From contig JAFDFT010000001.1 of the NCBI GenBank assembly GCA_019309685.1, forward strand, positions 1 to 62,246: a stretch of DNA of 62,246 nucleotides. The letters run 5' to 3'. The DNA comes from Deltaproteobacteria bacterium. GTDB lineage: Bacteria > Desulfobacterota > Desulfobacteria > Desulfobacterales > JAABPS01. The notes beneath the pieces were generated by a model, which saw only the letters and a list, made by a program, of their open reading frames with translations, was not told the DNA's origin and ran no database searches. Positions 8,401 through 47,902 of the stretch are shown here, in pieces. The position numbers and the translations under genes are program-made. How positions within the stretch are numbered: the stretch's first letter is position 1; each line of letters begins with the position of its first letter.

Positions 8401-11400
8401 ACTTTTCGTGGCTTTTCGACCACTTTAAAAACTCCGCCTGAATTTCTTTCTGTTTCTCTGTGGCTGCGAGCGTGGCTTCTGCATTAAGGACTTTCGACAT
8501 TCCGCCTTCTGGATTCTGAACAGAATCATAAACCTTTGTTCTCTTTAGATTTAAAGCATCCTGAACGAGTACATGCCCTTTTACTCTCCCCGTTCCCCAG
8601 GTATTTACATTCTTTGCGTTATCGTGTCGGGATCTCGGCGAAACTTTCCATGCGGAAGTTTCTCTCGTTCGTGCCTGCTGAACTTCGGTATCAACCTCCA
8701 TGGTTGTTGATATGAATTGTTGGATAAGGTCGTTAGGTAGCCATGAGCTCCCCAGCTTGAAATAAATAAATTCTATGTCTAATTCTTCCGGCTGGACAGC
8801 TTTAAGCGCTTTAACGTTATGCTTATATTCTGGTTTTTCGCTCGCCTGCTGCTCAACAAGAATAAGCTTTTTCTTAACATTCCCGGAAAGATAGTTCTCG
8901 GGAGTCTCGATCATACCGTTTTCAGGGTTTAGATATCCAAGCTCCTGATCAATAACATCTTTATAAACAGCTTCTTTAGTCGATCCTGTAAGATCGGCAA
9001 TGAACTGAGTGTTTACTTTACCTTTATAAATTAAAGAAAGCGCTATCGCGTCTTTTACATTATCTGCTGTTTTAGGTTCTCTAAAAGGAAAAATGGTCCG
9101 CTTCGCGAATATGGCAGACTTTGTAAAAGAAACAATATTTACCTTGCGTTCCTGCCCCTTTTTGGCTCCGCTTTTAAATTTAGTGGTATGCTGCTTGACC
9201 GTTTCATCTTCCAGGGCATCAACCACAGGAAAGTCATTATCTATCTTTTGCAAGAAAGAGTTTGCAGGGGCGCCGACGTTTCCGTTCTTAGAAACGAAAG
9301 CATCGTAATCTTTGTTTAATTGTTTCCGTAATTTTGTGATTTCCGCGTCGGTTGCGTCCTCTTGCTGCATCCGGTCGATAATCTTTATAGTCGTGTCTTT
9401 TAATTTTAAATAATCCCTGGCCCTGCTTTCCCGGCCCTTATTATCGATTGCTTTAACCAGCTTACCTTTTGTGTTGTAAATTTTAGGCTCAACAAGGATA
9501 CCGTCCTCAACAACGCGAAACTTGCCGTCTTTTTCAAGCAGTATATTTTCTTTCGTGCCTATATCGGCATATTCCTTTTCGCCTTCTTCCACGATAGAGC
9601 CTTCACCGGCTATATCTTTTGGCAGGGTTTCTATGGCTTTTTTGATTTGCTCGGCAAGATCCCCTTTGTTTGGCAACAGGGTATACGTTTTTTCACCATA
9701 CATGGTCCCTTTTTTCGAGTGCTTCCCCATGACCATTTCAGGATGATCGACAAAATATTCATTTATAGGGACCGTATCTGATGCAGCACGACCGGACTTG
9801 ACTTCCTTTGTGATCCTGAAGTCTTTTCCCAATCCCTGCAATTCGTTGTCTTTTTTCCGAAAAATAAGAATATCGGTAACAACTTCGGTGCCAGCGTCCT
9901 TCTTAAACGCCGTTTCTGGAAGTCTTATTGCACCGATCAAGTCGGCTTTATTTGCAATATACTCTTTAACGTTACCATTTGTTGTTGAATCTAAGGTATA
10001 TCGTGAAGTAATCGCGATAACGAGGCCACCAGGTCGCACAGAATCAATCGAACGCGCAAAGAAGTAGTTGTGTATGCTCCAATCTGAGTAATCAGGATGC
10101 TTCTTGTCGTAGACCGGATATTTACCAAAAGGGAAGTTACTCACAACCAGGTCCGCGGAATTGTCGGGGATCCCCTTTGCATTTTCAAAGCCGGTTATTT
10201 GAATTCGAGCCTGCGGATATAGCTTTTCAAGTATTTTTCCTGTGATTGTATCTAATTCGACACCTACCAGGGCAGAATTATTGCGCATAGCTTCGGGCAT
10301 TAAACCAAAGAAGTGACCGACACCGGCAGCGGGCTCTAAAACAGTCCCGCCTTTAAAGCCGAAATGTTCGGCAATGTCCCAAATAGAATTGATAACCTTG
10401 CGTGATGTGTAATGAGCGTTTAGGGTGGACTCTGCGGCGCTGTCCCATTCTTCCTGAGTCAATAAGCCGTTAAGCCTGGGATGAAGGTGTCTTCCGTACT
10501 TGCTTTTCCATTCCTCGTATTTTTTAAGATCATCCCCATATCTACTGAAATAGTTTTCAGGCTTTTTGATATCGGAAGAATTCTTTAGGAAGTTGTCGTA
10601 TTTGCGGGTAAAAACCTTTTGAGCGAAAGCGCCCCAGCCAACATACTGAGCCAGGGCCTTCTTTTCTTCAACGGTAGGATTACGATTTTCGGATTCGAGC
10701 TGTTTAACAAGTCGAATTGCTTTTATATTGGTCTTGATTTTAGTTACGTCACCGCGCGGAAACATAAGGTCGCCCGCTTCGATAACGTGGTTTTGATCTT
10801 CTTTCTTTGTTAGGCTGTCATCGTCCCTAAGATTTGCAGTTCCAGCTCGTTCGCCAGGCTCCTGGGTGGATTCTGACCGCTTGCCGGGCCGTCCGACGGC
10901 GCCACTATCTTTGCGTACACCACTTCCTCGATCTGGTCTGGTTCCATCTTCCCCTGCAGGCGCAGTATCGATGTCAGTATCGACGACCTCTGCACTATCC
11001 GGAGCAATATCTGTTTGAGCTGGTCCCGGTCTTCCTGAAACAGCTTCCGGGTGTCCTGCGGGTGGTTTTCCAGTAGCCATTGCAGATGGCTTTCCCACTC
11101 CGGGTAGTTCTCCGGATTCTCTATCTCCAATTCCTCCGGGTTCAGGTTCTTCAATTCCTGTAGTGACAGTTCCGACGCCTTCAACACCTTCAACGATAGA
11201 TCCACCTGTGGCCTCCTTTCCCATTTCTTCTTTTATAAATTTCTCAATATACACCTTTCCCTTTAAGGAAAGAGTATCAATCATAATTTTAACAAATTCA
11301 GATCCACTTTTACCCGCTGCGATAGCTGCTTTCAAGGCTTTGTGTAAATGAGGCTTTATCTGTTCCCATTTATCCGGGTTGAATTCTGTAGAAAATTCAC

Positions 11401-13411
11401 CCTTTTGGCCAAGGATATCGCTAACAGCCTTCAGCTCGTCGGCAAGGACGGTAAGGTTGTCAACAACTTCTTTGCCCTTAATCTCTCTTTCTTGCCTTTT
11501 AAAGTCGGCAAGTAGTTCGGTGGGGGTTGAATCTTCTACAGGTTTGGTTATCTCTCGTATTCCGGGTGATACGGATTCTTGGTCTTCTTCGGTAGGTGAT
11601 TTCCGGGTTTGGTCCACCGGCTTGCGCTGAACAGTCTCTTGCTCATATCCTCGCTGAAGGTCAGATTCGGATCCCGGTTTAATAACCCGGACACGCCCTC
11701 GAATTTTCGGGAGTCTTTCTTCAATTTCTTGCTCAGTTTTTTTAGGTTTTCTTTCATAGCGTATTACCCCCTTAGCTTCAGTCTTAATATAATCCAATTT
11801 TTTGAATTTGTCAAACAAATTCTTGTCTAAAACCTCAGTTTTTCCTTTTTCATGTTTAAATACTTGAATAGAGTCCCGACCGTCCACATTATTATCAGAC
11901 ATTTCAAAGATAACGTTATGATTATCTTTGTATTCCTTAAACAACTGTCGAAACGTAGGAAGTGAATAATTATAGGCCTTTACAGAGGCACTCAATGGAA
12001 CTTTACGGCCAACAACTTCGCGACCTTCTGCCCGGGCTTCTTCTTCCTGGGCCATTTTACGCAATCTTACTCTAACCTGAGAAGTTTCCGCGTCAATGTC
12101 AGTAAAGCCAATGTGAGCTTCCCCACCTTGTTCAAGTACCTTTTCTATATATCCTTTTGCTTTTTCATAATTGCCTAAAAGCGAATCATAAGCTACATGG
12201 TGTCCCTTTTTTATGGCTCTATTTAAGATTACGCCTGAAATCTTTTTTGCTTCTTCGTGATATGCGACAGCTTCTTCGCCCTGGTCGTGGCCTAAATCAA
12301 CTTTTACCTGATCAGCATTAGGATCGACAAAAACTTTCAGGTCTATCCCCATATCAATAGAGCCGCTTGTTTTACCCGCACCAGGGAGCCCACCCGTTAA
12401 AACGATAGTTTGTGTTTCTCCAAGGTCTTTAGCTGTGGGCTTGCCCTTTAAGTGAAGATTAAACAGCCGTCTTTTCTCTTGCCGGGTAATTTTGACCGGT
12501 GCCAACTCGGTTGCAAGCTCTATTTCCTCGATAACAGCGTCAAGGATCTCGTTTAATTCGCCAAGTTTGGTCCGGCCAGTAACCTTTTCTATGGCTTTAA
12601 GGATAATATCTTTAAGCTGGCCCCATAGGGTTTGAGACTCATTTTTAACGCCTTTGGCTCCGATTGAATTCAACCAGTTAGCAAAGGTTTTATTGGTAAG
12701 ACCGTATGTTGCGAGCTCGTCAACTTTTGCTCTGCCGGTATCTATCTCTGTGAATATTTTTTTAACATATGTCGGGGCGGTATCAACGTGTGTTTTTAAT
12801 GTATCGTAAAATTCAACGAGGTCTTTATGGAGCGTTTCATAGGATCCGCTTTGTGTCTTGATAACGTTATTAATAAGAGCATGAATTGCCTCATGCGCGA
12901 GCGGCTGGTCAAATTTGTCGGCGGTTCTTTCTGCCTTTTCGAGTAGGCCCCTGTTAATAAATATTCTGTTCGTCCTGTTACTGTAAACTGCGATAGAAGT
13001 CGGCCTTGCCTTTATATTATTAACAACGCTGATCTTTACGTCGTATTTTTTAATGGCATTAAAAAGCGCTCCGTATTGTGTTGGAACTCCAACCTTGCCA
13101 AAAAAGGCTTCAACAAAATCTCCAACGGGAGATACAGTTTTAACCTCGTCCACCGTTTCATTGAAAGCTGTGAAAAAGTCGGCTTTCTTGACCGGCGCTA
13201 TCGGCTTGTCCGACATGTTCTTTCTGATAAACTCAATAATATCAACACGATCTTTTTGAGCCTCTGCCAGTTTTTCCCCGACAACCTTAAGCGCTGCCTT
13301 CCGATCTTCCATGCCTAATTCGACAAGATCATCGACCAGGCCGTTAATTTCGGTTCGTTCGTCCCTCGATATCTTAGCCAGTTTGAAACATTTATTAGAT
13401 ATCATCGTCAA
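2480..13411 (-). CDS. 3643-aa polyvalent protein: HExxH module, zeta-toxin-like P-loop kinase, disordered linker, N6-adenine MTase, SNF2/DEAH helicase, hydrophobic C-terminal region (DarB-like, probably virion-delivered)
   Basis: One uninterrupted ORF. Motifs: HEAIH 12881..12895; GGLPGAGKTS 12365..12394; P/G/E/D-rich linker 10802..11209; YVGWGAF; LEPAAGVGHF 10310..10339; SNFPFG 10124..10141; GVGTGKTG 8204..8227; DEAH 7727..7738; QRNGRIVR 6716..6739. Confidence 0.9.
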   Translation of the reverse strand: MTMISNKCFKLAKISRDERTEINGLVDDLVELGMEDRKAALKVVGEKLAEAQKDRVDIIEFIRKNMSDKPIAPVKKADFFTAFNETVDEVKTVSPVGDFVEAFFGKVGVPTQYGALFNAIKKYDVKISVVNNIKARPTSIAVYSNRTNRIFINRGLLEKAERTADKFDQPLAHEAIHALINNVIKTQSGSYETLHKDLVEFYDTLKTHVDTAPTYVKKIFTEIDTGRAKVDELATYGLTNKTFANWLNSIGAKGVKNESQTLWGQLKDIILKAIEKVTGRTKLGELNEILDAVIEEIELATELAPVKITRQEKRRLFNLHLKGKPTAKDLGETQTIVLTGGLPGAGKTSGSIDMGIDLKVFVDPNADQVKVDLGHDQGEEAVAYHEEAKKISGVILNRAIKKGHHVAYDSLLGNYEKAKGYIEKVLEQGGEAHIGFTDIDAETSQVRVRLRKMAQEEEARAEGREVVGRKVPLSASVKAYNYSLPTFRQLFKEYKDNHNVIFEMSDNNVDGRDSIQVFKHEKGKTEVLDKNLFDKFKKLDYIKTEAKGVIRYERKPKKTEQEIEERLPKIRGRVRVIKPGSESDLQRGYEQETVQRKPVDQTRKSPTEEDQESVSPGIREITKPVEDSTPTELLADFKRQEREIKGKEVVDNLTVLADELKAVSDILGQKGEFSTEFNPDKWEQIKPHLHKALKAAIAAGKSGSEFVKIMIDTLSLKGKVYIEKFIKEEMGKEATGGSIVEGVEGVGTVTTGIEEPEPGGIGDRESGELPGVGKPSAMATGKPPAGHPEAVSGRPGPAQTDIAPDSAEVVDTDIDTAPAGEDGTRPDRGSGVRKDSGAVGRPGKRSESTQEPGERAGTANLRDDDSLTKKEDQNHVIEAGDLMFPRGDVTKIKTNIKAIRLVKQLESENRNPTVEEKKALAQYVGWGAFAQKVFTRKYDNFLKNSSDIKKPENYFSRYGDDLKKYEEWKSKYGRHLHPRLNGLLTQEEWDSAAESTLNAHYTSRKVINSIWDIAEHFGFKGGTVLEPAAGVGHFFGLMPEAMRNNSALVGVELDTITGKILEKLYPQARIQITGFENAKGIPDNSADLVVSNFPFGKYPVYDKKHPDYSDWSIHNYFFARSIDSVRPGGLVIAITSRYTLDSTTNGNVKEYIANKADLIGAIRLPETAFKKDAGTEVVTDILIFRKKDNELQGLGKDFRITKEVKSGRAASDTVPINEYFVDHPEMVMGKHSKKGTMYGEKTYTLLPNKGDLAEQIKKAIETLPKDIAGEGSIVEEGEKEYADIGTKENILLEKDGKFRVVEDGILVEPKIYNTKGKLVKAIDNKGRESRARDYLKLKDTTIKIIDRMQQEDATDAEITKLRKQLNKDYDAFVSKNGNVGAPANSFLQKIDNDFPVVDALEDETVKQHTTKFKSGAKKGQERKVNIVSFTKSAIFAKRTIFPFREPKTADNVKDAIALSLIYKGKVNTQFIADLTGSTKEAVYKDVIDQELGYLNPENGMIETPENYLSGNVKKKLILVEQQASEKPEYKHNVKALKAVQPEELDIEFIYFKLGSSWLPNDLIQQFISTTMEVDTEVQQARTRETSAWKVSPRSRHDNAKNVNTWGTGRVKGHVLVQDALNLKRTKVYDSVQNPEGGMSKVLNAEATLAATEKQKEIQAEFLKWSKSHEKWGPDLAKIYNEEFNGYVLRTFDPPDVKYFPNASRERELRWLQKKAVARGLQESTLFSHGVGTGKTGSFVTLAMEMRRIGTARKPLIVVQNATIKQYAKSFHKLYPQARVLIPSDGQRKGKNRKKLLSQIATGDWDAVILPHSFFDGIADDAEREAAFVQEQLDEIEATVDEFEAAEGKGSLTVKQMKALKKRKQAHLEKLLNRRVDDALKFEQLGVDALLIDEAHNYKRSEFFTKMGQVKGIDQGSAQRSTSLLLKADYIRQKTGGKNIILATGTPISNTTAELWTMIRYIRPDLLEEYNATLFDDFAANFGDTTVALEETESGTFKSVERFNKYVNGPELLTMFHTASDVVLTQDAGLVLPKIKTGKPEMVVVERTNALSGFIEILRDTREHWEQLTGREKMRQRHVPLVLFGQARKAAVDLRLIDPQHYKDDPGSKLNTAIENIYQIYEDTAEDNSVQIAFLDIYQNSDKTFNAYHDIRDKLIAKGMKAKEIAIIGELKTDVQREAVFQRARDGKIRFIIGSTAKLGIGVNIQNKLIAAHHLDAPMRPMDIEQRNGRIVREKNENAEVQIFNYGVKNTLDSVMYDRLMKKQKFIDQMLNGDIDGRTFDEPLGEEQVSYAEMQAAFSGNPLLFTKNDLEIDLKNLRILKSSHERAVSSARRSVKSLKEIDIPNQKENLVRAEGVAKTIKSIFPTGKLETYTYKGEELTSKEFIKEFRKEWDNIKGKIEKSFKGISYSDYRARQKAGQDKVYFNTKVHGLDLKVTFEPLVWYNLNEVLKKPGTPITLNEDVLDDTMVELRHEGDLIIRRTTRGPGGLTTVINNSIEQRLAEPQKETDYIKELEIELAEHQTLADKKFGKGQEIADKEQQLSEIEDQLNDLSRVREDVTEEVATERQVDRDNMLKSIGLKETDIEEAETPVMETPVETPRPEPSQYYVNVRGEFETAPDNAKKVDVVPDDWTGEPIEAFISRAEDDKEWTVTEATTGQQLANGTIKKQAIDLARSKIDQAGPEKMKENIAYGMEKGGRSPWAADDLDSMIDEEDLDQDIKDLLNRHMPEAKKGLKKLKDPSHKKIHRESKGLFKYAQDRFGKGFVDKDMKWYDRTFNNPYWAGKKFWFMKDAVGVEIKAAETRSTELFNDYEGDLGELQDEYGKWSKAQKKELQDLIWKWDDRRMPKKAVPTDWNKPAEQGEDIEIDPEHYREVKAFLEKSRVNPAVIQGFITIRKKLDEKFVDIDRTMRIEDLDSSKIREYRANINKANNYFPHRRTGSGYIQIFNKEKEIVVFREHFSLTKDRILPINRKASARAEQWLKDAVAKGKLKGSVSDYRISDPGPLKELPDEVFFQIPIEGIQQVVSSAGKDLATSRVQYEADRLYNKEGKTRKEALDLARRRLTADMEDALSKAVADTFKARGWGKHGIHRKNIPGHEKEDIFGILFDYLSGYAGFKTKITRTKAHHEILVNVDAKKYPAGYKHLSKYVKDMLANQDKTDRAVDTLRGIFFVKYLGFVIKSGMVNLTQNVVMAAPMLGLHTKGAHRKLSKAMVDTRRALTSKNAWFGKEVDYKHITKNEQQALHEMVESGATMDLFLRELKGNMPGVGIGKHFKKVIDKSGIFMQVAEKFNRASTGLAAYRVGVKEKGMSHDDAVAFAKTVVYDSHFLYGKANMPTGMRGGDAQKIARAAYTFRSFSHNYLLAMRHLFFNQRGGKKAFARSLRNLFLMGGLTSLPFFKVFTDILFAAIGEDDEDALTMARKMVPDQWMKDLIVYGLPGVVGADFSGSLSIEVPKNVYDIIGVPYAAYEDSINMYKSLKSGNYYRAAAETPFTPLSVRNAMRGLELYTIGHRTRSGRDINAVGKAGPRKITTKEFVQKSFVGLQPTSVSKGFASYRATKKMQTSISEKRRSFADRFVNALRREDYKATQAIMQEIAKWNEKAAKVNRPHRIIDIEGMIESRMKPGFNNIPENQRWKALEIQKQWE

Positions 13412-35533: not shown

Positions 35534-36619
35534 CTATGCGTTCGGATCTGCGATATAAGTATCAACTGCTATTACACCGAAATCCAAGCTGTTAAACCTG
35601 GCCTTGGAACAACCGAACATAGCCCCTGCGGTAATGACAAGAGCGTTACCACGGTCGTCTGTTTCCTCATTCCAGGAGTAACGGCCAAAGGCTCCGCCTC
35701 CGCCCCATGCGATTACAGCCGCCTGTGCGCCTAAGAAAAGCGCTCTTGCAGCATCAACGTCGCTACCTGAACCATAATCATCAAAACGAATTACATTTCG
35801 GTGTTTATGCAGGATAACGTCGGCGTATTCGCCCAAAGCGTTATGATACAGGTGATTTCCGTCACCGCGCAGGCCTGCGTTCTTCTGAATATCAACCCAA
35901 TCATTCTCAGAGGTTGACGTTCTTAGTGAGTAAGCCTGGAAGGTGTGCATAAGGAAGACAAACTTATTCTCTCCCTGTACGCGGAAAGGCTGGATCATTG
36001 GATCGAGAGTTTCAGCTTTTGCGACCAGCTTTTCAACAATTCCCAAAGCCAGGCCATCAGCCGAATCAAGATCGCCCTTACCGGTAGCAGCGCCGCCATA
36101 AATCTGATGTGCTGCGTCCGGGGCTCTTAAACTGTTGTTTGCTCGCCCTGCCCATGAAAGCCCAACATGGAAGGAAGTATCAACACCACGAGCCCCAGCC
36201 AGGTACATCATAAGCTGTTGGTCGTAATCTTCTGCCCACCATGTAGAAAGAGCGTTACGGCCTTCAAGCCGCATATTGTAGGGCACTCTCTGCTCTGACA
36301 TTTTGCCCTTTGATTTCGTGCCTTTACGTCTTTGGCTGATGAAAACAAAATCATTAAAGAATTCCAGCGCTTCCTCTGCGCTCGTTCCTTCAATTTGATC
36401 ATCATCCTCAGCACCGTCTCCGCCGAGTTTCATACGCAGGGCAAAGATGATTTTCTCACCAGCCTGCTTATTGAGCTCAGTTTTGACTTTAATAAGGGCA
36501 TCGTCGCCCGTACCCATAAACTTGCGGAAATATTGCTTTACTTCCGCTTCTTTGGCAAGGCTGGTTGACCAGCGCTGAACTGCCAAAGGATCATTTAATG
36601 CAAATTCTGTTGCAGCCAT
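35534..36619 (-). CDS. major capsid protein, N4 gp56 family
   Basis: N-terminal signature RWSTSLAKEAEVKQYFRKFMGTGDDALIKVKTELNKQAGEKIIFALRMKLGGDG...IEGTSAEEAL. Size 361 aa, positioned after the scaffold gene. Confidence 0.85.
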   Translation of the reverse strand: MAATEFALNDPLAVQRWSTSLAKEAEVKQYFRKFMGTGDDALIKVKTELNKQAGEKIIFALRMKLGGDGAEDDDQIEGTSAEEALEFFNDFVFISQRRKGTKSKGKMSEQRVPYNMRLEGRNALSTWWAEDYDQQLMMYLAGARGVDTSFHVGLSWAGRANNSLRAPDAAHQIYGGAATGKGDLDSADGLALGIVEKLVAKAETLDPMIQPFRVQGENKFVFLMHTFQAYSLRTSTSENDWVDIQKNAGLRGDGNHLYHNALGEYADVILHKHRNVIRFDDYGSGSDVDAARALFLGAQAAVIAWGGGGAFGRYSWNEETDDRGNALVITAGAMFGCSKARFNSLDFGVIAVDTYIADPNA

Positions 36620-38034: not shown

Positions 38035-38787
38035 TCATGAGTTCCTATCGTCAAAGTATTTGTGTGCAAATATCTTCCTTCCGCCAACATCAAACAGCGG
38101 GTTTTCGTTTATATAGTTAAACGGAATTTTATTCTTTAGTAAAAAAGCCCTGGCTTCGTTCTCGAAGTTCCCGCTTCTACAGGTCCATATTATAATAATG
38201 TTTTCCTGGTTTTGCCATAAGAGCTTGATCTTATTCACCGTTTCCGGGATAACCGGCCCAATCGTAGGAAAGTCGTTTTCAACAATGGTACCGTCAAAGT
38301 CAAACGCGTAAAACTTATATCTTTCTGGTCCTGTGTAGATTACGTCAAAACCTTCATCAAGAGACGGCTTTTCATAGTTGTTAGACATAGTATGGAATAC
38401 AGTCTCCCAGGTTGCTGCGGGGATCCCGTTAGAATCATCCTGTCTGCGTTCTAAGCACTCTGGATAGCCTGGTCCCCAATCATAAGCTATAATCTTACAA
38501 CCGAATCGGTTGCCATACTCAACATACCTGGCTCGCCTTGCTTTATCCATATTGGTACGATCAACGACAACATCATTCCCGGTCCTTAGCGCCGTTAAAA
38601 TGGCCGTCGCTTCTATATTTTGGTAAATCTCCTTCTTTTTATAATCATATAGCCCATATTCGCCACCCCCGACCATTTGTTGAATCGAATCCATATTGAC
38701 TATAACGTCTCCATCTTTGGCGAATCTGTTTGCCAGTACTGATTTACCGCTGCCTATATTACCAATAAAGACATTTAATGTACTCAA
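38035..38787 (-). CDS. bifunctional polynucleotide kinase / HAD phosphatase-like protein (Pnkp-like)
   Basis: TTG start. N-terminal P-loop GNIGSGKS and DRTN. C-terminal DxDxT motif FDFDGTI with a HAD-type tail. Confidence 0.7.
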   Translation of the reverse strand: MSTLNVFIGNIGSGKSVLANRFAKDGDVIVNMDSIQQMVGGGEYGLYDYKKKEIYQNIEATAILTALRTGNDVVVDRTNMDKARRARYVEYGNRFGCKIIAYDWGPGYPECLERRQDDSNGIPAATWETVFHTMSNNYEKPSLDEGFDVIYTGPERYKFYAFDFDGTIVENDFPTIGPVIPETVNKIKLLWQNQENIIIIWTCRSGNFENEARAFLLKNKIPFNYINENPLFDVGGRKIFAHKYFDDRNS

Positions 38788-38881
38788 ACTTTCTCCCCTT
38801 TTTCAAACTTTTCAAGCAGCTTCACAAGGTGTAAGGCTATTCTTTTTAATATCTTAACGATTGTTTTTGTTTCTTCAGTCA

Positions 38882-39163
38882 TTATATTACCCGAATTAGG
38901 TGCTTTTTATCTTTTCCCATAATTGCGTCAAAGTATGAATTGGACTTCGCTTCTTTATAAAAAGATTTAGACCAGACTTTCGCTGCGAGCTTGTTATTAA
39001 CCGCTACGACTCCATAATCTTTATTGTTGAACCTGACCTTCCCGGGACCTGTGATTACACCTCCGGCAATAACAGGCTTAGGAGCTGCAAGCAACGCCTT
39101 TGGAGCGACCAGGGCGAGCCCGGCTAAAACTCCAAGTTTTTTAAGAAAGATTCGTCTATTCAT
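38882..39163 (-). CDS. 93-aa protein: Tat-type signal peptide fused to a copy of the capsid N-terminal arm
   Basis: MNRRIFLKKLGVLAGLALVAP matches the RRxFLK twin-arginine consensus. The last 40 aa align with capsid residues 7-46 (about 17 of 40 identical). Confidence 0.55.
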   Translation of the reverse strand: MNRRIFLKKLGVLAGLALVAPKALLAAPKPVIAGGVITGPGKVRFNNKDYGVVAVNNKLAAKVWSKSFYKEAKSNSYFDAIMGKDKKHLIRVI

Positions 39164-39456
39164 TTACTTACAACCTTGATATCAGGTTTCTTTTCTTCCT
39201 CTTTCTTTTTAATGTTCACATCAACCAGGGTAGCCGTGAATCTCAACCGTGAAACGTTCGTAACTGAAACTTCATAGACGAACGGGCCGATGGTAAGTTG
39301 TAATCCAACCGGAGGAACGAAAGCCTGCTTTTCCTTTAAGGGAAGGCTTAGAAGCTCCTTTATTCGCAGTTTAGCGTTCAAAGGTACATTGTCGGCCTCT
39401 TTGATCTTTAACGATTCCTGCTTACCGCTGCCTATGATCTTATTCTCTGGTTCCAT
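39160..39456 (-). CDS. hypothetical protein (98 aa)
   Basis: Track ORF with ATGA coupling. Confidence 0.5.
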   Translation of the reverse strand: MEPENKIIGSGKQESLKIKEADNVPLNAKLRIKELLSLPLKEKQAFVPPVGLQLTIGPFVYEVSVTNVSRLRFTATLVDVNIKKKEEEKKPDIKVVSK

Positions 39457-39465
39457 TATCTAACC

Positions 39466-39621
39466 TCATTTTGGAATAACTATGTGGTATTCCTTGTGGA
39501 TTGGATTATACCACGCATCTGCCTTATAGAAGGTCGGCATGTCTGCAATATACATAAGAACGTATGCAGACCCGCAAAAGACAATGATGAATAGTGTGTA
39601 TTTAATAAATTTACTAACCAT
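39466..39621 (-). CDS. 51-aa membrane micro-protein (internal ATG of track ORF 39466..39813)
   Basis: MVSKFIKYTLFIIVFCGSAYVLMYI TM segment. Its start overlaps the stop of 39614..39838. Confidence 0.3.
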   Translation of the reverse strand: MVSKFIKYTLFIIVFCGSAYVLMYIADMPTFYKADAWYNPIHKEYHIVIPK

Positions 39622-39838
39622 TCTTTTTCCCAAACCTCTGATCAAACCATTCAGGGGATCCGGGCGAGGCCGGGAAGGTATCATCGTACTTATCCCGGAA
39701 AGATCCTGTATTGTCAGATCTGAATCTTTCAGAAAAGCACCTGAAATCCCTGCCGTTTGGAAATATTCTTTGACTGCGCATTTCCTTGTCGGCCTGTTTC
39801 TCAAAAGCCACATCTTCTGCCGCTGTTAATTGTCTCAT
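39614..39838 (-). CDS. hypothetical protein (74 aa)
   Basis: GGGAGGA SD, then ATG in a TAATG overlap with the upstream micro-ORF. Confidence 0.35.
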   Translation of the reverse strand: MRQLTAAEDVAFEKQADKEMRSQRIFPNGRDFRCFSERFRSDNTGSFRDKYDDTFPASPGSPEWFDQRFGKKNG

Positions 39839-41984: not shown

Positions 41985-43489
41985 TATGCTGCTCTTTTTC
42001 TTTTAGGTGAAAAGTCTGCCGCAGTATTTGCAAACTCATGTGCTACTGCCATGGTTATAAACGCATCAGCCGGGTTACTGGCCCAATTGTGATAAGGTTT
42101 GTCTCGATATGTGCCGCGCTTATCGTCCCATTCTCTGCGATAGTTCTCTAAAGCCTTAATTCCGGCTGCGCAGTTCTTCTCATGGAAGATACAGTGAGGC
42201 AGGATAGACCTGGCAGCGGATATCTGGTCCGCATCGTCTTGAATATCCTTTCTCAACTTTGGAGCCACTTCGAAATCTATCCCCAATTCCAAAGCTCTTT
42301 CAACGCGAGTCTTGCCTGTTCCCCATTCTGTGTTGTTAATATCGTGCGGTCCGGTATGTTTCCCGAACTTATAGCCGGTGTCTCTTAAAATATCCTTATA
42401 GAAGGGTAGGCCTTCGTTGTAATTCTCATAGAAATCAATAAGGTGTATCATATTGCCGATTGTTTGCGAAAACCATATAGCCGTTGTATCGCTGGCTCTT
42501 AACCCCAGGTCCCACCAGGTATCAATCGGATATCCTTCTTCGGTCGGAAAGATGGTAATTCGTTTCTCTTTATAGATCCTCTGGAATTGACTTGTAAAGT
42601 ATGCACCTTCAATCCTGGCCTCGAAAGCTTCCTCGGGTGTCGAGGGATGCTCTCGCTTCATTTCGTCGCCCTGGGTTTCCCACTTCTTCGAGTACCATGC
42701 TTGCTGCTTTCCATCCAGGGCGATACTATGTTTATCTTTAAGGGATTTAAAATAAGCCTCAAGAGGTTTCGGGATAACAACCTGAGCGTCCAGGGTATTA
42801 CGGGGATCTTGCCACCATGGGAAGAAAAAGAACTTGAAGTCGAGCATGGTTAATTTAACCTTGCCTTCTTTCTTCTTCTTCGCAGCCTGGCAATAATCAA
42901 AGAAATATCCTTCGTTACCTTCTGCGGTTGATTCAATGGCTATAAACTGCCCGGCGTGAACAGTGTTTAATGCACCGGTGACGATCTCTTTTGCTTTATC
43001 CGGAAACTTCTTACATAGCTTTCCGAACTCAGAGATATGTAAATACTGTAAAGTGCCTGATCTAAGGCTTGTACCTACCCTAATGGCAGAGTTATTGTTG
43101 AATAGAAGCTCTCTGGCGGAGTCGGTTTTCGCCGTAATGACGTCTTTTATCTCTTTTGGGAGGTTATCATAGGCAAACTTAACTTTATCTTTAAAGAAAG
43201 CCTCGGCATCTTCCCTGTTATGAGCGATTATACCGGCCCTCATGTTGGAGTTGAATAGGCAGATGTCAAGAAAGAGGATACAAAAGAAGGTTGTGACGCC
43301 ATGCTGTCTTGATTTCAGGATGATGGAAAGGAACCATAAGAACTTGTATAGAATCTGCTGGACCATATTCGGACGGAACTTAACCTTCTCGCCCTTTTCG
43401 TTGACGATCCAATACAGATTGTTGAGCCGCCACTTTTGGTTGGCCATGTTATTCTTAAACTGTTTAAGTTCTTTTGTTTCTTTTTTCAT
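41984..43489 (-). CDS. terL: terminase large subunit
   Basis: N-terminal ATPase region LKSRQHGVTTFF and IIAHNREDAE, then a C-terminal nuclease-type region. Start is uncertain (GTG 43519, ATG 43489 or 43447). Confidence 0.8.
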   Translation of the reverse strand: MKKETKELKQFKNNMANQKWRLNNLYWIVNEKGEKVKFRPNMVQQILYKFLWFLSIILKSRQHGVTTFFCILFLDICLFNSNMRAGIIAHNREDAEAFFKDKVKFAYDNLPKEIKDVITAKTDSARELLFNNNSAIRVGTSLRSGTLQYLHISEFGKLCKKFPDKAKEIVTGALNTVHAGQFIAIESTAEGNEGYFFDYCQAAKKKKEGKVKLTMLDFKFFFFPWWQDPRNTLDAQVVIPKPLEAYFKSLKDKHSIALDGKQQAWYSKKWETQGDEMKREHPSTPEEAFEARIEGAYFTSQFQRIYKEKRITIFPTEEGYPIDTWWDLGLRASDTTAIWFSQTIGNMIHLIDFYENYNEGLPFYKDILRDTGYKFGKHTGPHDINNTEWGTGKTRVERALELGIDFEVAPKLRKDIQDDADQISAARSILPHCIFHEKNCAAGIKALENYRREWDDKRGTYRDKPYHNWASNPADAFITMAVAHEFANTAADFSPKRKRAA

Positions 43490-43805
43490 TTCGTTCGGTT
43501 CTCTTAAAGAGTACCCCACCTTTAATGAAAATCAGCTCTATCGACGGATCGTTTAATAGTGCTTGATACTCACGAGGAAATACGTTTTTATATGTATCCC
43601 ATATAACATCGCTCATTCCACCGTAACAACCATTTAAACTTTCAAGTCTCTCGCCCGTGGGGCACCCATCATTTTCCCTAATGATTATAGGCCTTTCTGA
43701 GACTGCCATTTTTTGGGGAATTGCGAAAAATTGCCATTTCCGAGGGCCTCGTCTCTGGTTTAAGACCAGTGTGTCGTTATACGGTATGAGATTATCTTCA
43801 TTCAT
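43464..43805 (-). CDS. hypothetical protein (113 aa)
   Basis: Track ORF. Confidence 0.4.
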   Translation of the reverse strand: MNEDNLIPYNDTLVLNQRRGPRKWQFFAIPQKMAVSERPIIIRENDGCPTGERLESLNGCYGGMSDVIWDTYKNVFPREYQALLNDPSIELIFIKGGVLFKRTERNEKRNKRT

Positions 43806-43983
43806 TCTGGTTTACCCTGGCTGTCTTTCCGCGTTCAGCATTGCGAAACTTATTCTTTTTTTGGGCTATTATTACTACCCCATAGTTTACAGGATCATAT
43901 ATAATCGGCGTTCCGTCCAGTGTATGATCAGGAGCGTTTTCCCCAAAGTCTTCTTTGCTCATTCCTATTATTAAGGGCTTCAT
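43798..43983 (-). CDS. hypothetical protein (61 aa)
   Basis: Track ORF coupled to TerS. Confidence 0.35.
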   Translation of the reverse strand: MKPLIIGMSKEDFGENAPDHTLDGTPIIYDPVNYGVVIIAQKKNKFRNAERGKTARVNQNE

Positions 43984-46601: not shown

Positions 46602-47459
46602 TTATATGCCTCCAAAGATCAGCCTTTCATTAATAGCTTTTCCGTTGAATTGAGGAATTTGCGTAAATCCACCCGCTTCAACATCGAGTAAAACATCTGA
46701 ATAAATATCGTTCCATGATTTTGCCGGGTGAATATGTTTAATGAGGTTGTGTGTAAATGCGCCCTGCCAGGTGTCGTTTATATAAGCGTCTGCTGATGTT
46801 TGATTATCCCTACAGCCGGATAGCAAAACATGGTTTAGTTCTATCGCTCTGGTTCCTATTTTCCTGTTTTGTAGTTCTCTCCCGGCGCTCCGCATCTGTA
46901 TGTCCCTGGGGGGTGCTAAAAATCTTGGCTGTTGCTTTGTTGGATTGTTGATGTCCCGGGTCATGCTTCCGGAATGGCAAGCATCAATTATGCAAGTAAG
47001 GGATGAATTTTGAGGAATTTCCTTGAATATTTCGGATAAATAATCATCGGTAAGTGGTAAATCCCAATTTATATCGTGGGGACATAAGATTTCGTCTAAA
47101 CCGTCGTTTAGCTCGTCTCCGTCTCTATCCCTTACCTGTGAGCCGTGTCCCGAGTATTGAAACACAAGCTCACTGTTCTCATGGTCCACCAACCATATCA
47201 GCCGGTCTATAATATTATTATGCGTTGCTCTTTCGTCTGTAACTACTCGAATATTATCCGCATCGAAATTGAACTGCTCAATTAAGACGGTTCTTAGGTG
47301 TTCCACATCGTTACAGCACCCGCGTAAATCACAATTAAGATCAGGTCTGTACTTATTAATCCCAACAAGCAGGGCGTATTTATATCTGTCGCCCACCTCT
47401 ACGTTTGGTTGACTCACGCTGGGCGGTTTATTAAATAAATTGCTTAAAAATTTACACAT
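46602..47459 (-). CDS. caspase/metacaspase-like cysteine protease (peptidase C14 fold)
   Basis: YALLVGINKY. Catalytic His in YSGHGS (47145..47147) and catalytic Cys in IIDACHSGS (46977..46979). TAATG coupling to the amidase gene. Confidence 0.85.
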   Translation of the reverse strand: MCKFLSNLFNKPPSVSQPNVEVGDRYKYALLVGINKYRPDLNCDLRGCCNDVEHLRTVLIEQFNFDADNIRVVTDERATHNNIIDRLIWLVDHENSELVFQYSGHGSQVRDRDGDELNDGLDEILCPHDINWDLPLTDDYLSEIFKEIPQNSSLTCIIDACHSGSMTRDINNPTKQQPRFLAPPRDIQMRSAGRELQNRKIGTRAIELNHVLLSGCRDNQTSADAYINDTWQGAFTHNLIKHIHPAKSWNDIYSDVLLDVEAGGFTQIPQFNGKAINERLIFGGI

Positions 47460-47902
47460 TATTTTCCCCTAAAGGCTTCAATGTTAAATCGTTTACCAGG
47501 GCAGGTCTTCCAGGGTGCCAGCTCTGTGTGTCCAAATACCTTTGCCGCTGGTATTTCGAATGTCTGCCTTAACGCCATAACCAGCTTTAAACCGCAGGCA
47601 AGCATTGCAACTGGCAGTGGATCATTGTCATAATTACCAATAAAACAAATACCCAGGCTGCGGCTATTCATATTATTCTGTTTACAGTGGGCTCCGTTTT
47701 CGTTCCACAATCTGCCGATAATGATCTCGTAACGGTCCCTAACCAATTCAATCATAAAGTGGTATCCGATATCTCGCATGGGTTTGTTACGATATGGACT
47801 ATCTGGATGAAGGCCGGTGTGCCATTTTCTGATGGCAGAGGTATTGTAGGATTTTCCGTCGGTGCTTAGGCTATGATGAAGGGTTATAAATTCTGGTGTC
47901 AT
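47459..47902 (-). CDS. N-acetylmuramoyl-L-alanine amidase (PGRP / T7-lysozyme type) endolysin
   Basis: ITLHHS, GYHFMI, GAHC, SLGICFIGNYD, GHTEL...CPGKRF. Confidence 0.85.
   Translation of the reverse strand: MTPEFITLHHSLSTDGKSYNTSAIRKWHTGLHPDSPYRNKPMRDIGYHFMIELVRDRYEIIIGRLWNENGAHCKQNNMNSRSLGICFIGNYDNDPLPVAMLACGLKLVMALRQTFEIPAAKVFGHTELAPWKTCPGKRFNIEAFRGK

What the first reader, a model, noticed from the sequence alone, without database searches (positions are those of the whole stretch)
38882..39163. Twin-arginine (Tat) signal peptide fused to a truncated copy of the major capsid protein N-arm
The 93-aa ORF starts with MNRRIFLKKLGVLAGLALVAP, a near-consensus RRxFLK Tat motif plus an h-region.

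Its last 40 residues are AVNNKLAAKVWSKSFYKEAKSNSYFDAIMGKDKKHLIRVI. They align without gaps to residues 7-46 of the capsid protein encoded 2.3 kb downstream (ALNDPLAVQRWSTSLAKEAEVKQYFRKFMGTGDDALIKVK), with about 17 of 40 identical, including the W-S, KEA, YF and MG positions. The ORF ends exactly there.

An exported fragment of a capsid N-arm has no obvious role in assembly. It could be a duplication relic captured behind an export signal, a regulator or decoy of capsid assembly, or an immunity/exclusion factor.
Basis: seen in the sequence. Interest (0 to 1): 0.65.

Follow-up and report, generated by a model that had tools for sequence, protein, structure and literature searches.

The report
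Export signal fused to capsid-protein pieces
A small phage gene joins a bacterial Tat export signal to two short pieces copied long ago from the phage's own capsid protein; it belongs to an undescribed family that shuffles capsid (and, in another phage group, portal) fragments behind the same signal, function unknown.

Summary
ORF93 (minus strand, 39163→38882) is a real, conserved small gene in the head-gene cluster of a GP4/Bcep22-type podophage.

- **Anatomy.** Residues 1-27 are a Tat-type signal. Residues 31-53 also match the MCP's last P-domain strand and C-arm (E=7e-7). Together they align without gaps to MCP[328-352]+[9-45].
- **Not a relic.** Three lineages keep the same C-arm→N-arm fusion, and pN is well below pS.
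- **A family.** A profile search finds 70-110-aa proteins with the same signal and different MCP pieces, several per genome. An MCP HMM hits 11 small ORFs in these islands; reversed and shuffled controls gave no hit better than E=0.68.
- **Independent case.** An unrelated phage group has a conserved Tat-signal ORF carrying a piece of its own portal.
- **No precedent found** in cultured phages, Pfam, PHROGs, PADLOC or the paper library.

The mature part ("cargo") is basic, hydrophilic and predicted unstructured. It is most likely an exported accessory protein that mimics capsid contact elements and acts in phage-phage or phage-host conflict. The mechanism is inferred, not shown.

The parts
38882..39163 (-). 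ORF93, the whole gene (93 codons plus stop)
   Evidence: Listed ORF. Identical protein called by NCBI and JGI (P0001). ATGA start/stop overlap with the upstream ORF and TAATG overlap with the downstream ORF.
39083..39163 (-). Residues 1-27: Tat-type signal peptide. It has N-R-R-I-F-L-K, the h-region LGVLAGLALVA, Pro21-Lys22, and A-L-L-A-A as a possible signal-peptidase site.
   Evidence: TIGR01409: 16.2 bits (cut-off 16.7), homologues 19.7-21.8. The family profile's weak PDB matches (mostly not significant) include several Tat substrates. AF2 helix 3-19 is the only confident part of the model.
39005..39073 (-). Residues 31-53: copy of the MCP's last P-domain strand and start of the C-arm (MCP 328-350). 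It contains the family core motif KVRFNNKDYGVV.
   Evidence: BLASTP E=7e-7. Shuffle z=13.4. MCP HMM positions 330-358, domain E=1.2e-6. tblastn to more than 25 capsid C-termini in IMG/VR.
38888..39004 (-). Residues 54-92: copy of the MCP N-arm (MCP 7-45). The ORF stops one residue later.
   Evidence: BLASTP E=5e-8. z=12.8. phrog_334 positions 5-46, E=7e-6. N-arm limits taken from GP4 gp2.
35534..36619 (-). Major capsid protein gene, the family from which both cargo pieces derive. The N-arm source is 36485-36601 and the C-terminal source is 35564-35638.
   Evidence: PF13252 E=5e-50. phrog_334 E=5e-93. PDB 8h89 E=1e-87. Coordinates of the matching stretches.
39160..39456 (-). ORF98, upstream neighbour whose stop overlaps the ORF93 start (ATGA). 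It accompanies the Tat-ORF throughout the window's clade.
   Evidence: 67-80% identical copies just upstream of the Tat-ORF in L001-L007 and L126. No family match.
38784..38882 (-). 32-codon ORF whose start overlaps the ORF93 stop (TAATG). Conserved in the clade.
   Evidence: 62-81% identical in L001-L007 and L126.
43464..43805 (-). ORF113 upstream of TerL. Its first 20 residues carry the motif NLIPYNDTLVLNQRRG, which also occurs in Tat-ORF family members. This is a possible signal-less relative of one cargo module.
   Evidence: 75% identity over 16 aa to P0003 and P0009, E=3e-4 and 8e-5. The L001 orthologue matches MCP 82-113 weakly, E=0.004. hhalign against the family profile is not significant.
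43798..43983 (-). ORF61 between TerS and ORF113. It contains GTPIIYDPVNYGVVIIAQKKN, which resembles the family core motif. This is weak evidence only.
   Evidence: hhalign E=0.002 but probability 14%. tblastn E=0.04-0.24 to several family members. No homologue in any fetched locus.

Best explanation
**What it is (shown).** ORF93 is a genuine, selectively maintained accessory gene of a GP4/Bcep22-type podophage. It encodes a 93-aa precursor in three parts:
- a Tat-type signal peptide of about 27 aa;
- about 25 aa derived from the capsid protein's last P-domain strand and C-arm;
- about 39 aa derived from the capsid N-arm.

It belongs to a previously undescribed, fast-evolving, often multi-copy family. 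In that family a conserved Tat-type signal is joined to varying pieces of the phage's own capsid protein.

**How it works (inferred).**
- The signal takes the short, basic, hydrophilic and largely unstructured mature peptide across the inner membrane by the Tat route.
- There the capsid-derived segments act as a mimic of surfaces that other proteins normally recognise on the head. These segments are exactly the elements that make subunit-subunit and capsomer-capsomer contacts in the solved relative.
- My preferred target is a component of an incoming related phage that passes through the periplasm, such as ejected internal proteins that were docked to the shell or portal inside the virion. That would give superinfection exclusion, analogous in logic to T4 Spackle.

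**How sure.**
- About 0.85 that it is a real capsid-derived protein with an export-type signal.
- About 0.5 that it works in conflict rather than in virion construction.
- About 0.3 for superinfection exclusion specifically.
For: **Anatomy and significance:**

**Signal:**

**Real gene under constraint**
- Syntenic homologues occur in relatives whose capsid protein is 94% and portal 86% identical.
- The same C-arm→N-arm fusion is present in the window, L001 and L126.
- Cargo pN is 0.33 against pS 0.65-0.71, giving dN/dS of about 0.2-0.3.

**Accessory and fast-evolving**
- Cargo dN is 0.44 against 0.03 for the capsid gene in the same genome pair.
- The family is absent from 50,697 cultured-phage records.
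- It is absent near PF13252 capsid genes in about 30 other loci.
- In relatives the island also holds an Acb2/Tad1-type gene.

**Family and modularity**
- 28 profile hits, all 71-109 aa, with the same signal.
- Capsid pieces from the N-arm, E-loop, P-domain and A-domain in different orders.
- Up to three Tat-ORFs per genome.

**Independent parallel:** a Tat signal plus a fragment of the phage's own portal (44% over 55 aa, E=2e-14), conserved in two lineages and seen on 17 contigs.

**Export-compatible cargo**
- Net charge +9, pI 10.1, GRAVY -0.24; family median pI 9.3.
- No confident fold in AF2.

**Contact elements:** mapping of the fragments onto contact elements of GP4 gp2.
Against: - No experiment or transcript/proteome evidence shows expression or export.
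- ORF93 itself scores just below the curated Tat cut-off. A few family members have RK or RN instead of RR.
- Some relatives lack an obvious signal-peptidase site ('KIPWPK' type). They might stay membrane-anchored.
- The gene sits inside the head-gene cluster with no convincing terminator between TerS and the capsid gene. This suggests late co-expression with structural genes, whereas classical exclusion genes are early.
- Nothing shows that the N-arm, E-loop or P-domain strands touch ejected proteins in the virion.
- Signal-less small ORFs with capsid pieces also exist. An exported-only model does not explain them.
- No similarity to known exclusion or defence proteins.
Confidence: 0.35

Rival explanations
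1. Anti-defence bait. The capsid (or portal) pieces bind a host cytoplasmic immune sensor that recognises these conserved structural proteins. The Tat signal then drags the complex to the membrane or out of the cytoplasm ('hitchhiker' export). Signal-less versions simply compete for the sensor. The sensor is neutralised as the real capsid protein appears.
For: - The cargo comes from capsid and portal proteins, the classes of phage protein known from the literature to trigger abortive-infection sensors (my knowledge: CapRel, Lit/Gol, Avs4).
- The gene is encoded just upstream of, and apparently co-transcribed with, the capsid gene.
- Relatives have an Acb2/Tad1-type sponge gene in the same island.
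- Evolution is fast and there are multiple paralogues.
- This model accommodates the signal-less fragments.
Against: - Fragments of a trigger would be expected to activate a sensor rather than silence it.
- I found no precedent for Tat-mediated removal of a host protein.
- Large sensor oligomers are unlikely Tat passengers.
- There is no information on the host or its defence systems.
Confidence: 0.15
2. Assembly factor. The hydrophobic N-terminus tethers the peptide to the inner membrane or TatBC. The capsid-interface mimic then binds capsid protein, scaffold, cement protein or portal. This would nucleate, chaperone or limit procapsid assembly at the membrane, or couple capsid load to membrane integrity and lysis timing.
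For: - The cargo keeps the residues conserved in the capsid family at contact elements: the N-arm WS...F..MG, FNxKD(Y/F)GV, and E-loop and P-domain strands.
- In GP4 these elements build the quasi-three-fold 'sandwich'.
- The gene lies inside the head-assembly cluster.
- The basic cargo (+9) contrasts with the acidic capsid protein (-10).
Against: - The family is absent from all cultured relatives with the same capsid type, so it is not needed to build this kind of head.
- Copy number and fragment content vary widely between close relatives.
- Amino-acid change is 15 times faster than in the capsid gene.
- A cleavable export signal would remove the peptide from the assembly compartment.
Confidence: 0.15
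3. No specific function. The small ORFs are by-products of frequent illegitimate recombination in a hot-spot next to the head genes. Under this view a widespread 'signal-peptide minigene' keeps picking up neighbouring coding sequence, and the products are neutral or only transiently kept.
For: - The islands are mosaic and differ between close relatives.
- Cargo dS exceeds that of flanking genes, suggesting exchange.
- AF2 finds no fold.
- Many family members have cargo with no detectable source.
Against: - The frames stay open and pN is about half of pS.
- The core motif FN.KDYGVV is kept across clades whose capsid proteins are only 40% identical.
- The same fusion junction is kept in three lineages.
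- The portal-fragment ORF is 64% identical between lineages and found on 17 contigs.
- The copies are ancient at the DNA level.
Confidence: 0.07

Closest known systems
Twin-arginine (Tat) signal peptides of bacterial periplasmic redox enzymes (TorA, PaoA, hydrogenase small subunits; TIGR01409 / PF10518)
   Same: It has an N-terminal RRxFLK motif and a Gly/Ala-rich h-region of about 13 residues. It also has a helix-breaking Pro and a basic residue before a small-residue cleavage region. HMM scores are at or above the curated cut-off in the closest homologues.
   Different: The passenger is not a cofactor-binding or folded enzyme. It is a peptide of about 65 aa, predicted to be unstructured, made of virus capsid pieces. 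It is encoded by a phage. ORF93 itself is 0.5 bit under the cut-off.
HK97-fold major capsid proteins of the PF13252 / phrog_334 family (Ralstonia phage GP4 gp2, PDB 8h89)
   Same: There is significant local homology to the N-arm and to the last P-domain strand and C-arm. The family's conserved residues are retained.
   Different: Only 62 of about 360 residues are represented. They are joined in the order C-terminus→N-terminus. The E-loop, spine helix and A-domain body are absent, so it cannot form a shell subunit.
Phage T4 Spackle (Sp), Imm and antiholin RI: small phage proteins sent to the envelope that act on superinfecting phage (my knowledge; RI signal peptide in PMC8385771)
   Same: These are also small phage-encoded proteins with an N-terminal export signal. 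The proposed logic is the same: a periplasmic protein that meets components of an incoming phage.
   Different: There is no sequence similarity (PHROGs search). The T4 proteins are exported by a different signal type (Sec) by my knowledge, are expressed early, and are not built from pieces of the phage's own structural proteins.
Capsid-derived peptides and capsid proteins as triggers of bacterial immunity (Gol peptide of T4 gp23 with Lit; CapRel; portal sensing by Avs4) (my knowledge)
   Same: Short stretches or folds of capsid and portal proteins are biologically recognised units. Here the phage itself encodes such stretches as separate genes.
   Different: In the known cases the host recognises the full structural protein. 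No separate phage gene encodes the fragment, and no export signal is involved.
Tat 'hitchhiker' co-export (HybO-HybC, DmsA-DmsB) (my knowledge)
   Same: A signal-bearing partner can carry a signal-less bound protein across the membrane. This is the only known route by which a Tat-tagged bait could remove a cytoplasmic partner.
   Different: The known pairs are dedicated enzyme subunits. There is no evidence here of any bound partner.

Membership tests
Tat signal peptide (TIGR01409 / PF10518) | Twin-arginine consensus (S/T)-R-R-x-F-L-K in the n-region | tested here: met
   The sequence reads N-R-R-I-F-L-K at residues 2-8. R3, R4, F6 and K8 are at least 90% conserved in the 18-member alignment.
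Tat signal peptide (TIGR01409 / PF10518) | Score above the curated HMM cut-off | tested here: inconclusive
   ORF93 scores 16.2 bits against a cut-off of 16.7. P0002 scores 21.8, P0003 19.7 and P0004 20.0. Pfam TAT_signal did not report ORF93 at E<=1.
Tat signal peptide (TIGR01409 / PF10518) | Moderately hydrophobic h-region followed by a c-region with a signal-peptidase I site (small residues at -1 and -3) | tested here: inconclusive
   The h-region LGVLAGLALVA, then P21 and K22, fit. The candidate site A-L-L-A|A has Ala at -1 but Leu at -3. Some relatives have clear AxA sites and others (the 'KIPWPK' type) have none. No SignalP/TatP tool was available.
Tat signal peptide (TIGR01409 / PF10518) | Export depends on TatABC and on the arginine pair | not testable with these tools
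   This needs a reporter fusion in wild-type and tatC-deleted cells, plus an RR→KK mutant.
HK97-fold major capsid protein, PF13252 / phrog_334 | Match along the whole profile (N-arm, E-loop, P-domain, A-domain) | tested here: not met
   Only profile positions 5-46 and 330-358 are matched. Pfam gives no hit for the 93-aa protein.
HK97-fold major capsid protein, PF13252 / phrog_334 | Statistically significant homology to family members | tested here: met
   E=5e-8 and 7e-7 to the phage's own capsid protein, with 0 of 5000 shuffles reaching either score. The family profile hits PDB 8h89 residues 320-361 at E=1.3e-5.
Known phage superinfection-exclusion / envelope proteins (PHROGs) and defence-system proteins (PADLOC) | Sequence membership in a described family | tested here: not met
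   The only PHROG hit is the major head protein family. There are no PADLOC hits for ORF93, its homologues or its neighbours.
Known phage superinfection-exclusion / envelope proteins | Blocks entry or development of a second, related phage | not testable with these tools
   No cultured relative carries the gene. This needs expression and plating assays.
Acb2/Tad1-type signal sponges (neighbouring gene in relatives) | Pfam PF24729 hairpin domain | tested here: not met
   No Pfam hit in ORF93 or its window neighbours. The domain is present only in separate genes of L001-L006.

The most novel reading that the evidence does not exclude
Some phages use the host Tat pathway together with 'baits' cut from their own head proteins (capsid N-arm, E-loop and P-domain strands; a portal segment) as a general weapon.

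The bait would seize whatever recognises those conserved surfaces. That could be a host immune sensor for capsid or portal proteins, or a rival phage's ejected or assembly proteins. The Tat signal would then export the captured partner or pin it at the membrane.

This would be a new counter-defence or exclusion principle. It is modular, because new baits arise by shuffling fragments behind a constant signal.
Probability: 0.12. Interest if true: 0.9.

Novelty: categorically new. Interest (0 to 1): 0.78.

Why it matters
Capsid and portal proteins are the parts of a tailed phage that hosts and rival elements most often recognise.

A family of phage genes that exports, or membrane-targets, short copies of exactly these proteins is not predicted by any current model of assembly, lysis, exclusion or counter-defence. 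The copies are conserved, shuffled and often present several times per genome.

If the peptides are baits, they point to unknown partners that read capsid or portal surfaces. These could be host sensors, ejected proteins or assembly factors. They would also give a simple handle for finding those partners by pull-down with a 60-aa peptide.

The family also offers a clean natural example of new genes being built by joining a constant targeting signal to fragments of neighbouring essential genes.

Even in the dullest outcome, it shows that similarity of a small ORF to a structural protein need not mean a decayed duplicate.

Tried and rejected
- **N4-like phage.** I first assumed this because of the 3643-aa ORF and PF13252. 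I rejected it: the nearest cultured capsids are GP4, Bcep22/DC1, PEp14 and PBC5-type podophages, and the giant ORF has Zeta-toxin and SNF2 domains, not an RNA polymerase match.
- **Cultured phages.** tblastn of ORF93 at E<=10 found only capsid C-termini.
- **Family libraries.** Pfam, NCBIfam, PHROGs and PADLOC gave nothing for ORF93 beyond the Tat signal and the head-protein family.
- **AlphaFold2.** Models of ORF93 (18-sequence alignment) and of P0004 (11 sequences) had pLDDT 58 and 53. Only the signal helix was confident, so no fold search was run.
- **Other Tat small ORFs.** I tested several for cargo resembling their own phage's proteins. L036/L037, L055/L058, L112, L115, L117 and P0033 had no detectable source within the DNA held. 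P0015 was not found in IMG/VR.
- **Single origin.** I could not establish that all capsid-type cargos have one origin. Mean identity of the 22-aa core is 0.43 within Tat-ORFs and 0.42 between Tat-ORFs and capsids. Only the Tyr in KDYG (13/17 against 0/28) hints at common descent.
- **Own-capsid tracking.** Whether each Tat-ORF tracks its own phage's capsid was suggestive only.
- **ORF61 and ORF113 as family members.** The evidence is weak.
- **Promoter and terminator scan.** Counts were no different from shuffles.

Full report
**1. Observation**

The ORF is real and lies on the minus strand, 39163→38882. Its start overlaps the stop of the upstream ORF98 (ATGA). Its stop overlaps the start of a 32-codon ORF (TAATG).

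It sits in a tightly packed, co-directional run of genes:
- TerS, 44525-43980
- two small ORFs
- TerL, 43519-41984
- portal, 41984-39930
- a small-ORF island that contains ORF93
- a PNK-like kinase/phosphatase, 38787-38035
- a scaffold-like protein, 37782-36643
- the major capsid protein (MCP), 36619-35534

It also returns a second, independent match: ORF 31-60 against MCP 328-357, 14/30 identical, E=7e-7. None of 5000 shuffles of either segment reached the observed score (z=12.8 and 13.4). The mature part aligns without a gap to MCP[328-352] joined to MCP[9-45]. PHROG 334 ('major head protein') independently matches ORF 52-93 to its positions 5-46 (E=7e-6).

**2. What the pieces are**

The MCP is a PF13252 protein. 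It is about 41% identical to the capsid proteins of Ralstonia GP4, Burkholderia DC1, Erwinia PEp14/Pavtok and Sinorhizobium PBC5. It matches the solved GP4 gp2 structure (PDB 8h89) at E=1e-87.

The GP4 paper (PMC9698820) gives these domains:
- N-arm, residues 2-47
- E-loop, 48-91
- P-domain, 92-140 and 307-342
- A-domain, 141-307 and 343-367, which includes a C-arm at 348-367

On that map ORF93 54-92 is essentially the whole N-arm, and the ORF stops at the N-arm/E-loop border. ORF93 31-53 is the last P-domain strand plus the start of the C-arm.

At the DNA level the copies are only 50-59% identical to the capsid gene, and third codon positions are 36-43% identical. The duplication is therefore old.

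**3. The signal**

Residues 1-27 have four features of a Tat signal:
- the twin-arginine consensus NRRIFLK;
- a Gly/Ala-rich h-region;
- Pro21-Lys22;
- a small-residue region, ALLAA.

TIGR01409 scores ORF93 at 16.2 bits against a cut-off of 16.7. The three closest homologues score 19.7-21.8, and NCBI names one of them a twin-arginine signal protein. After the GP4 capsid protein, the family profile's further matches in the PDB are weak. Only a tyrosinase reaches E=0.002, and the rest lie at E=0.08-0.5. By my own knowledge several of them are Tat substrates: TMAO reductase, PaoA, the Fe-hydrogenase small subunit and PvdN. I could not run TatP or SignalP. Export itself is untested.

**4. Conservation and selection**

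Closely related phages carry a syntenic homologue between the portal and the PNK/scaffold/MCP genes. In L001-L007 the MCP is 94% identical and the portal 86% identical to the window's. The ORF93 homologue is only 52% identical. About 90% of the signal is conserved, while the cargo varies with insertions and deletions.

Three lineages (window, L001, L126) keep the same C-arm→N-arm junction.

| Measure | Cargo | MCP | Portal | Source |
|---|---|---|---|---|
| pN, pS (Nei-Gojobori) | 0.33, 0.65-0.71 | 0.03, 0.42 | 0.08, 0.56 | |
| dN/dS | about 0.2-0.3 | 0.05 | 0.08 | |
| dN, window vs L001 | 0.44 | 0.03 | 0.08 | |

Synonymous sites are near saturation, so the cargo ratio is rough. The gene is constrained, but it evolves about 15 times faster than the capsid gene.

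**5. A family, not a one-off**

A profile of four homologues was searched against 1.8 billion representative proteins. It found 28 proteins of 71-109 aa, nearly all starting MNRRxFLKxLGxxAGLALVAPKxLL. Their mature parts carry different capsid-derived pieces:

| Capsid piece carried | Family members |
|---|---|
| C-terminal 25-40 residues | P0003, P0004, P0006, P0017, P0019, P0021, P0029, P0030 |
| N-arm alone | P0013 |
| A-domain stretch 255-275 | P0005, P0011, P0016, L043, L136 |
| End of the E-loop, 83-100 | P0003, P0027, P0032 |
| Combinations in varying order | several |

Some genomes hold several such genes. L042 has three Tat-ORFs plus two signal-less ORFs with capsid residues 88-103 and 106-140. 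L043, L045 and L136 have two or more each.

I then ran two systematic tests.
- An HMM built from 29 capsid proteins was run against all 1664 six-frame ORFs of 25-200 aa in seven loci. It gave 11 domain hits at E<=0.1, all in these islands. The reversed and shuffled controls gave nothing better than E=0.68.
- An all-small-against-all-large BLASTP inside each locus found no other hit at E<1e-3. There were only a few weak hits at E=0.002-0.009.

Outside these lineages the family was not found:
- it is absent from 50,697 cultured-phage records;
- no Tat-like small ORF lies near the capsid gene in about 30 other PF13252 loci from IMG/VR, metagenomes and genomes.

**6. An independent parallel**

In an unrelated phage group, an 89-aa ORF with the same kind of signal lies about 2 kb upstream of the portal gene (L034/L046; the portal is only weakly P22-like). 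Residues 34-88 are 44% identical to residues 405-459 of that phage's own portal (E=2e-14).

A second lineage, whose portal is 73% identical, has a syntenic homologue that is 64% identical. It was seen on 17 contigs and matches its own portal at 41% (E=4e-11).

Other Tat small ORFs in that group, and several members of the main family, have cargo with no source that I could detect. The theme is therefore recurrent but not universal.

**7. Properties of the cargo**

ORF93's mature part has net charge +9, pI 10.1 and GRAVY -0.24. The family median pI is 9.3, whereas the MCP has net charge -10 and pI 5.3.

AlphaFold2 with the shallow family alignments gives pLDDT 58 for ORF93 and 53 for P0004. Only the signal helix is confident, with weak helices in the N-arm copy. 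This suggests a passenger that does not fold on its own. From my knowledge of Tat transport, small unstructured hydrophilic passengers are accepted. Such a peptide might fold only on a partner.

**8. How it most likely works**

Shown:
- it is a conserved small gene;
- it has an export-type signal;
- its cargo is derived from two capsid contact elements;
- it belongs to a modular family.

Inferred: the peptide is exported, or at least taken to the membrane, and its capsid-like segments mimic surfaces that some partner normally reads on the head.

The gene is accessory, fast-evolving, variable in copy number and carries a strongly conserved export signal. I therefore favour a role in conflict in the envelope. 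Most simply this would be exclusion of incoming related phages by capturing proteins that were docked to the shell or portal in the virion.

The rivals are a bait for host sensors of capsid or portal proteins, an assembly tether or regulator, and functionless recombination debris. Their evidence is set out in the Rival explanations section.

Three points cut against my favoured model:
- the gene's place in the head-gene cluster with no evident terminator;
- the signal-less fragment ORFs;
- the lack of any similarity to known exclusion or defence proteins.

**9. Comparison with what is known, and novelty**

The N-terminus behaves as a Tat signal by sequence. The cargo is homologous to PF13252 capsid proteins but is not a capsid protein.

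I found no described family or paper on phage genes that join an export signal to pieces of their own capsid or portal proteins. The architecture therefore appears new, although its function is unknown.

**10. Caveats**
- Everything rests on metagenomic sequence.
- The host is unknown, and MAG binning is contradictory: the same phage lineage is labelled Deltaproteobacteria in one record and Pacearchaeota in another.
- dS is saturated.
- The capsid set used for the core-motif comparison was itself selected by that motif.
- Structure predictions used shallow alignments.

Noticed in passing
window 43464-43805 (-) and L001 4885-5202: A conserved 105-113-aa gene just upstream of TerL begins MNEDNLIPYNDTLVLNQRRG. 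The same 16-aa motif (75% identical) occurs inside Tat-ORF family members P0003 and P0009, and the L001 copy weakly resembles capsid residues 82-113 (E=0.004). It may be a signal-less carrier of one cargo module.
   Followed up: partly
window 43798-43983 (-): This is a 61-codon ORF between TerS and ORF113 that is unique to this genome. It contains GTPIIYDPVNYGVVIIAQKKN, which resembles the family core motif. Support is weak (hhalign E=0.002, probability 14%).
   Followed up: partly
L046 7449-7715 (IMGVR_UViG_3300021406_000030) and L147 10001-10270: An unrelated phage group has an 89-aa Tat-signal ORF whose cargo is 41-44% identical to residues ~405-462 of its own portal protein. The ORF is conserved (64% identical) between two lineages and was seen on 17 contigs.
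   Followed up: yes
L042 9465-10658: One relative (capsid 59% identical) packs three Tat-signal small ORFs and two signal-less ORFs into 1.2 kb. The signal-less ORFs carry capsid residues ~88-103 and ~106-140. The three signals share a lineage-specific form (KWLGI.P....G.KIPWPK) that lacks an obvious peptidase site.
   Followed up: partly
L001 10958-11320, L005 5241-5444, L006 3231-3593: Relatives carry an Acb2/Tad1-hairpin (anti-CBASS/anti-Thoeris sponge type) gene in the same portal-to-capsid island. The window lacks it: ORF32 is followed directly by the PNK-like gene.
   Followed up: no
window 2480-13411 (-): This 3643-aa ORF has a Zeta-toxin kinase domain (332-509) and an SNF2/ResIII/Helicase_C helicase region (1708-2232). 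It is presumably a giant virion or ejected protein, as in Bcep22/GP4-type podophages. It is not an N4-type RNA polymerase by these searches.
   Followed up: partly
window 46602-47902 (-); L001 1102-2441: A caspase-like Peptidase_C14 gene directly follows the Amidase_2 endolysin gene. The pair is conserved in the relative. This is an unusual partner for a lysis enzyme.
   Followed up: no
window 38035-38787 (-): A 250-aa fusion of a P-loop kinase (AAA_33, polynucleotide-kinase-like) and a HAD phosphatase sits between the small-ORF island and the scaffold gene. It is conserved in the relatives.
   Followed up: no
window 39466-39838 (-): Two overlapping frames both look conserved because the DNA is conserved. 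Relatives call the 74-aa frame (window 39838..39614). The mechanically listed 115-aa ORF is therefore probably not the real gene over its first half.
   Followed up: partly
P0001 and P0004 source records: The same phage lineage is deposited inside MAGs named 'Deltaproteobacteria bacterium' and 'Candidatus Pacearchaeota archaeon'. At least one is a binning artefact, so the host cannot be read from the record names.
   Followed up: no
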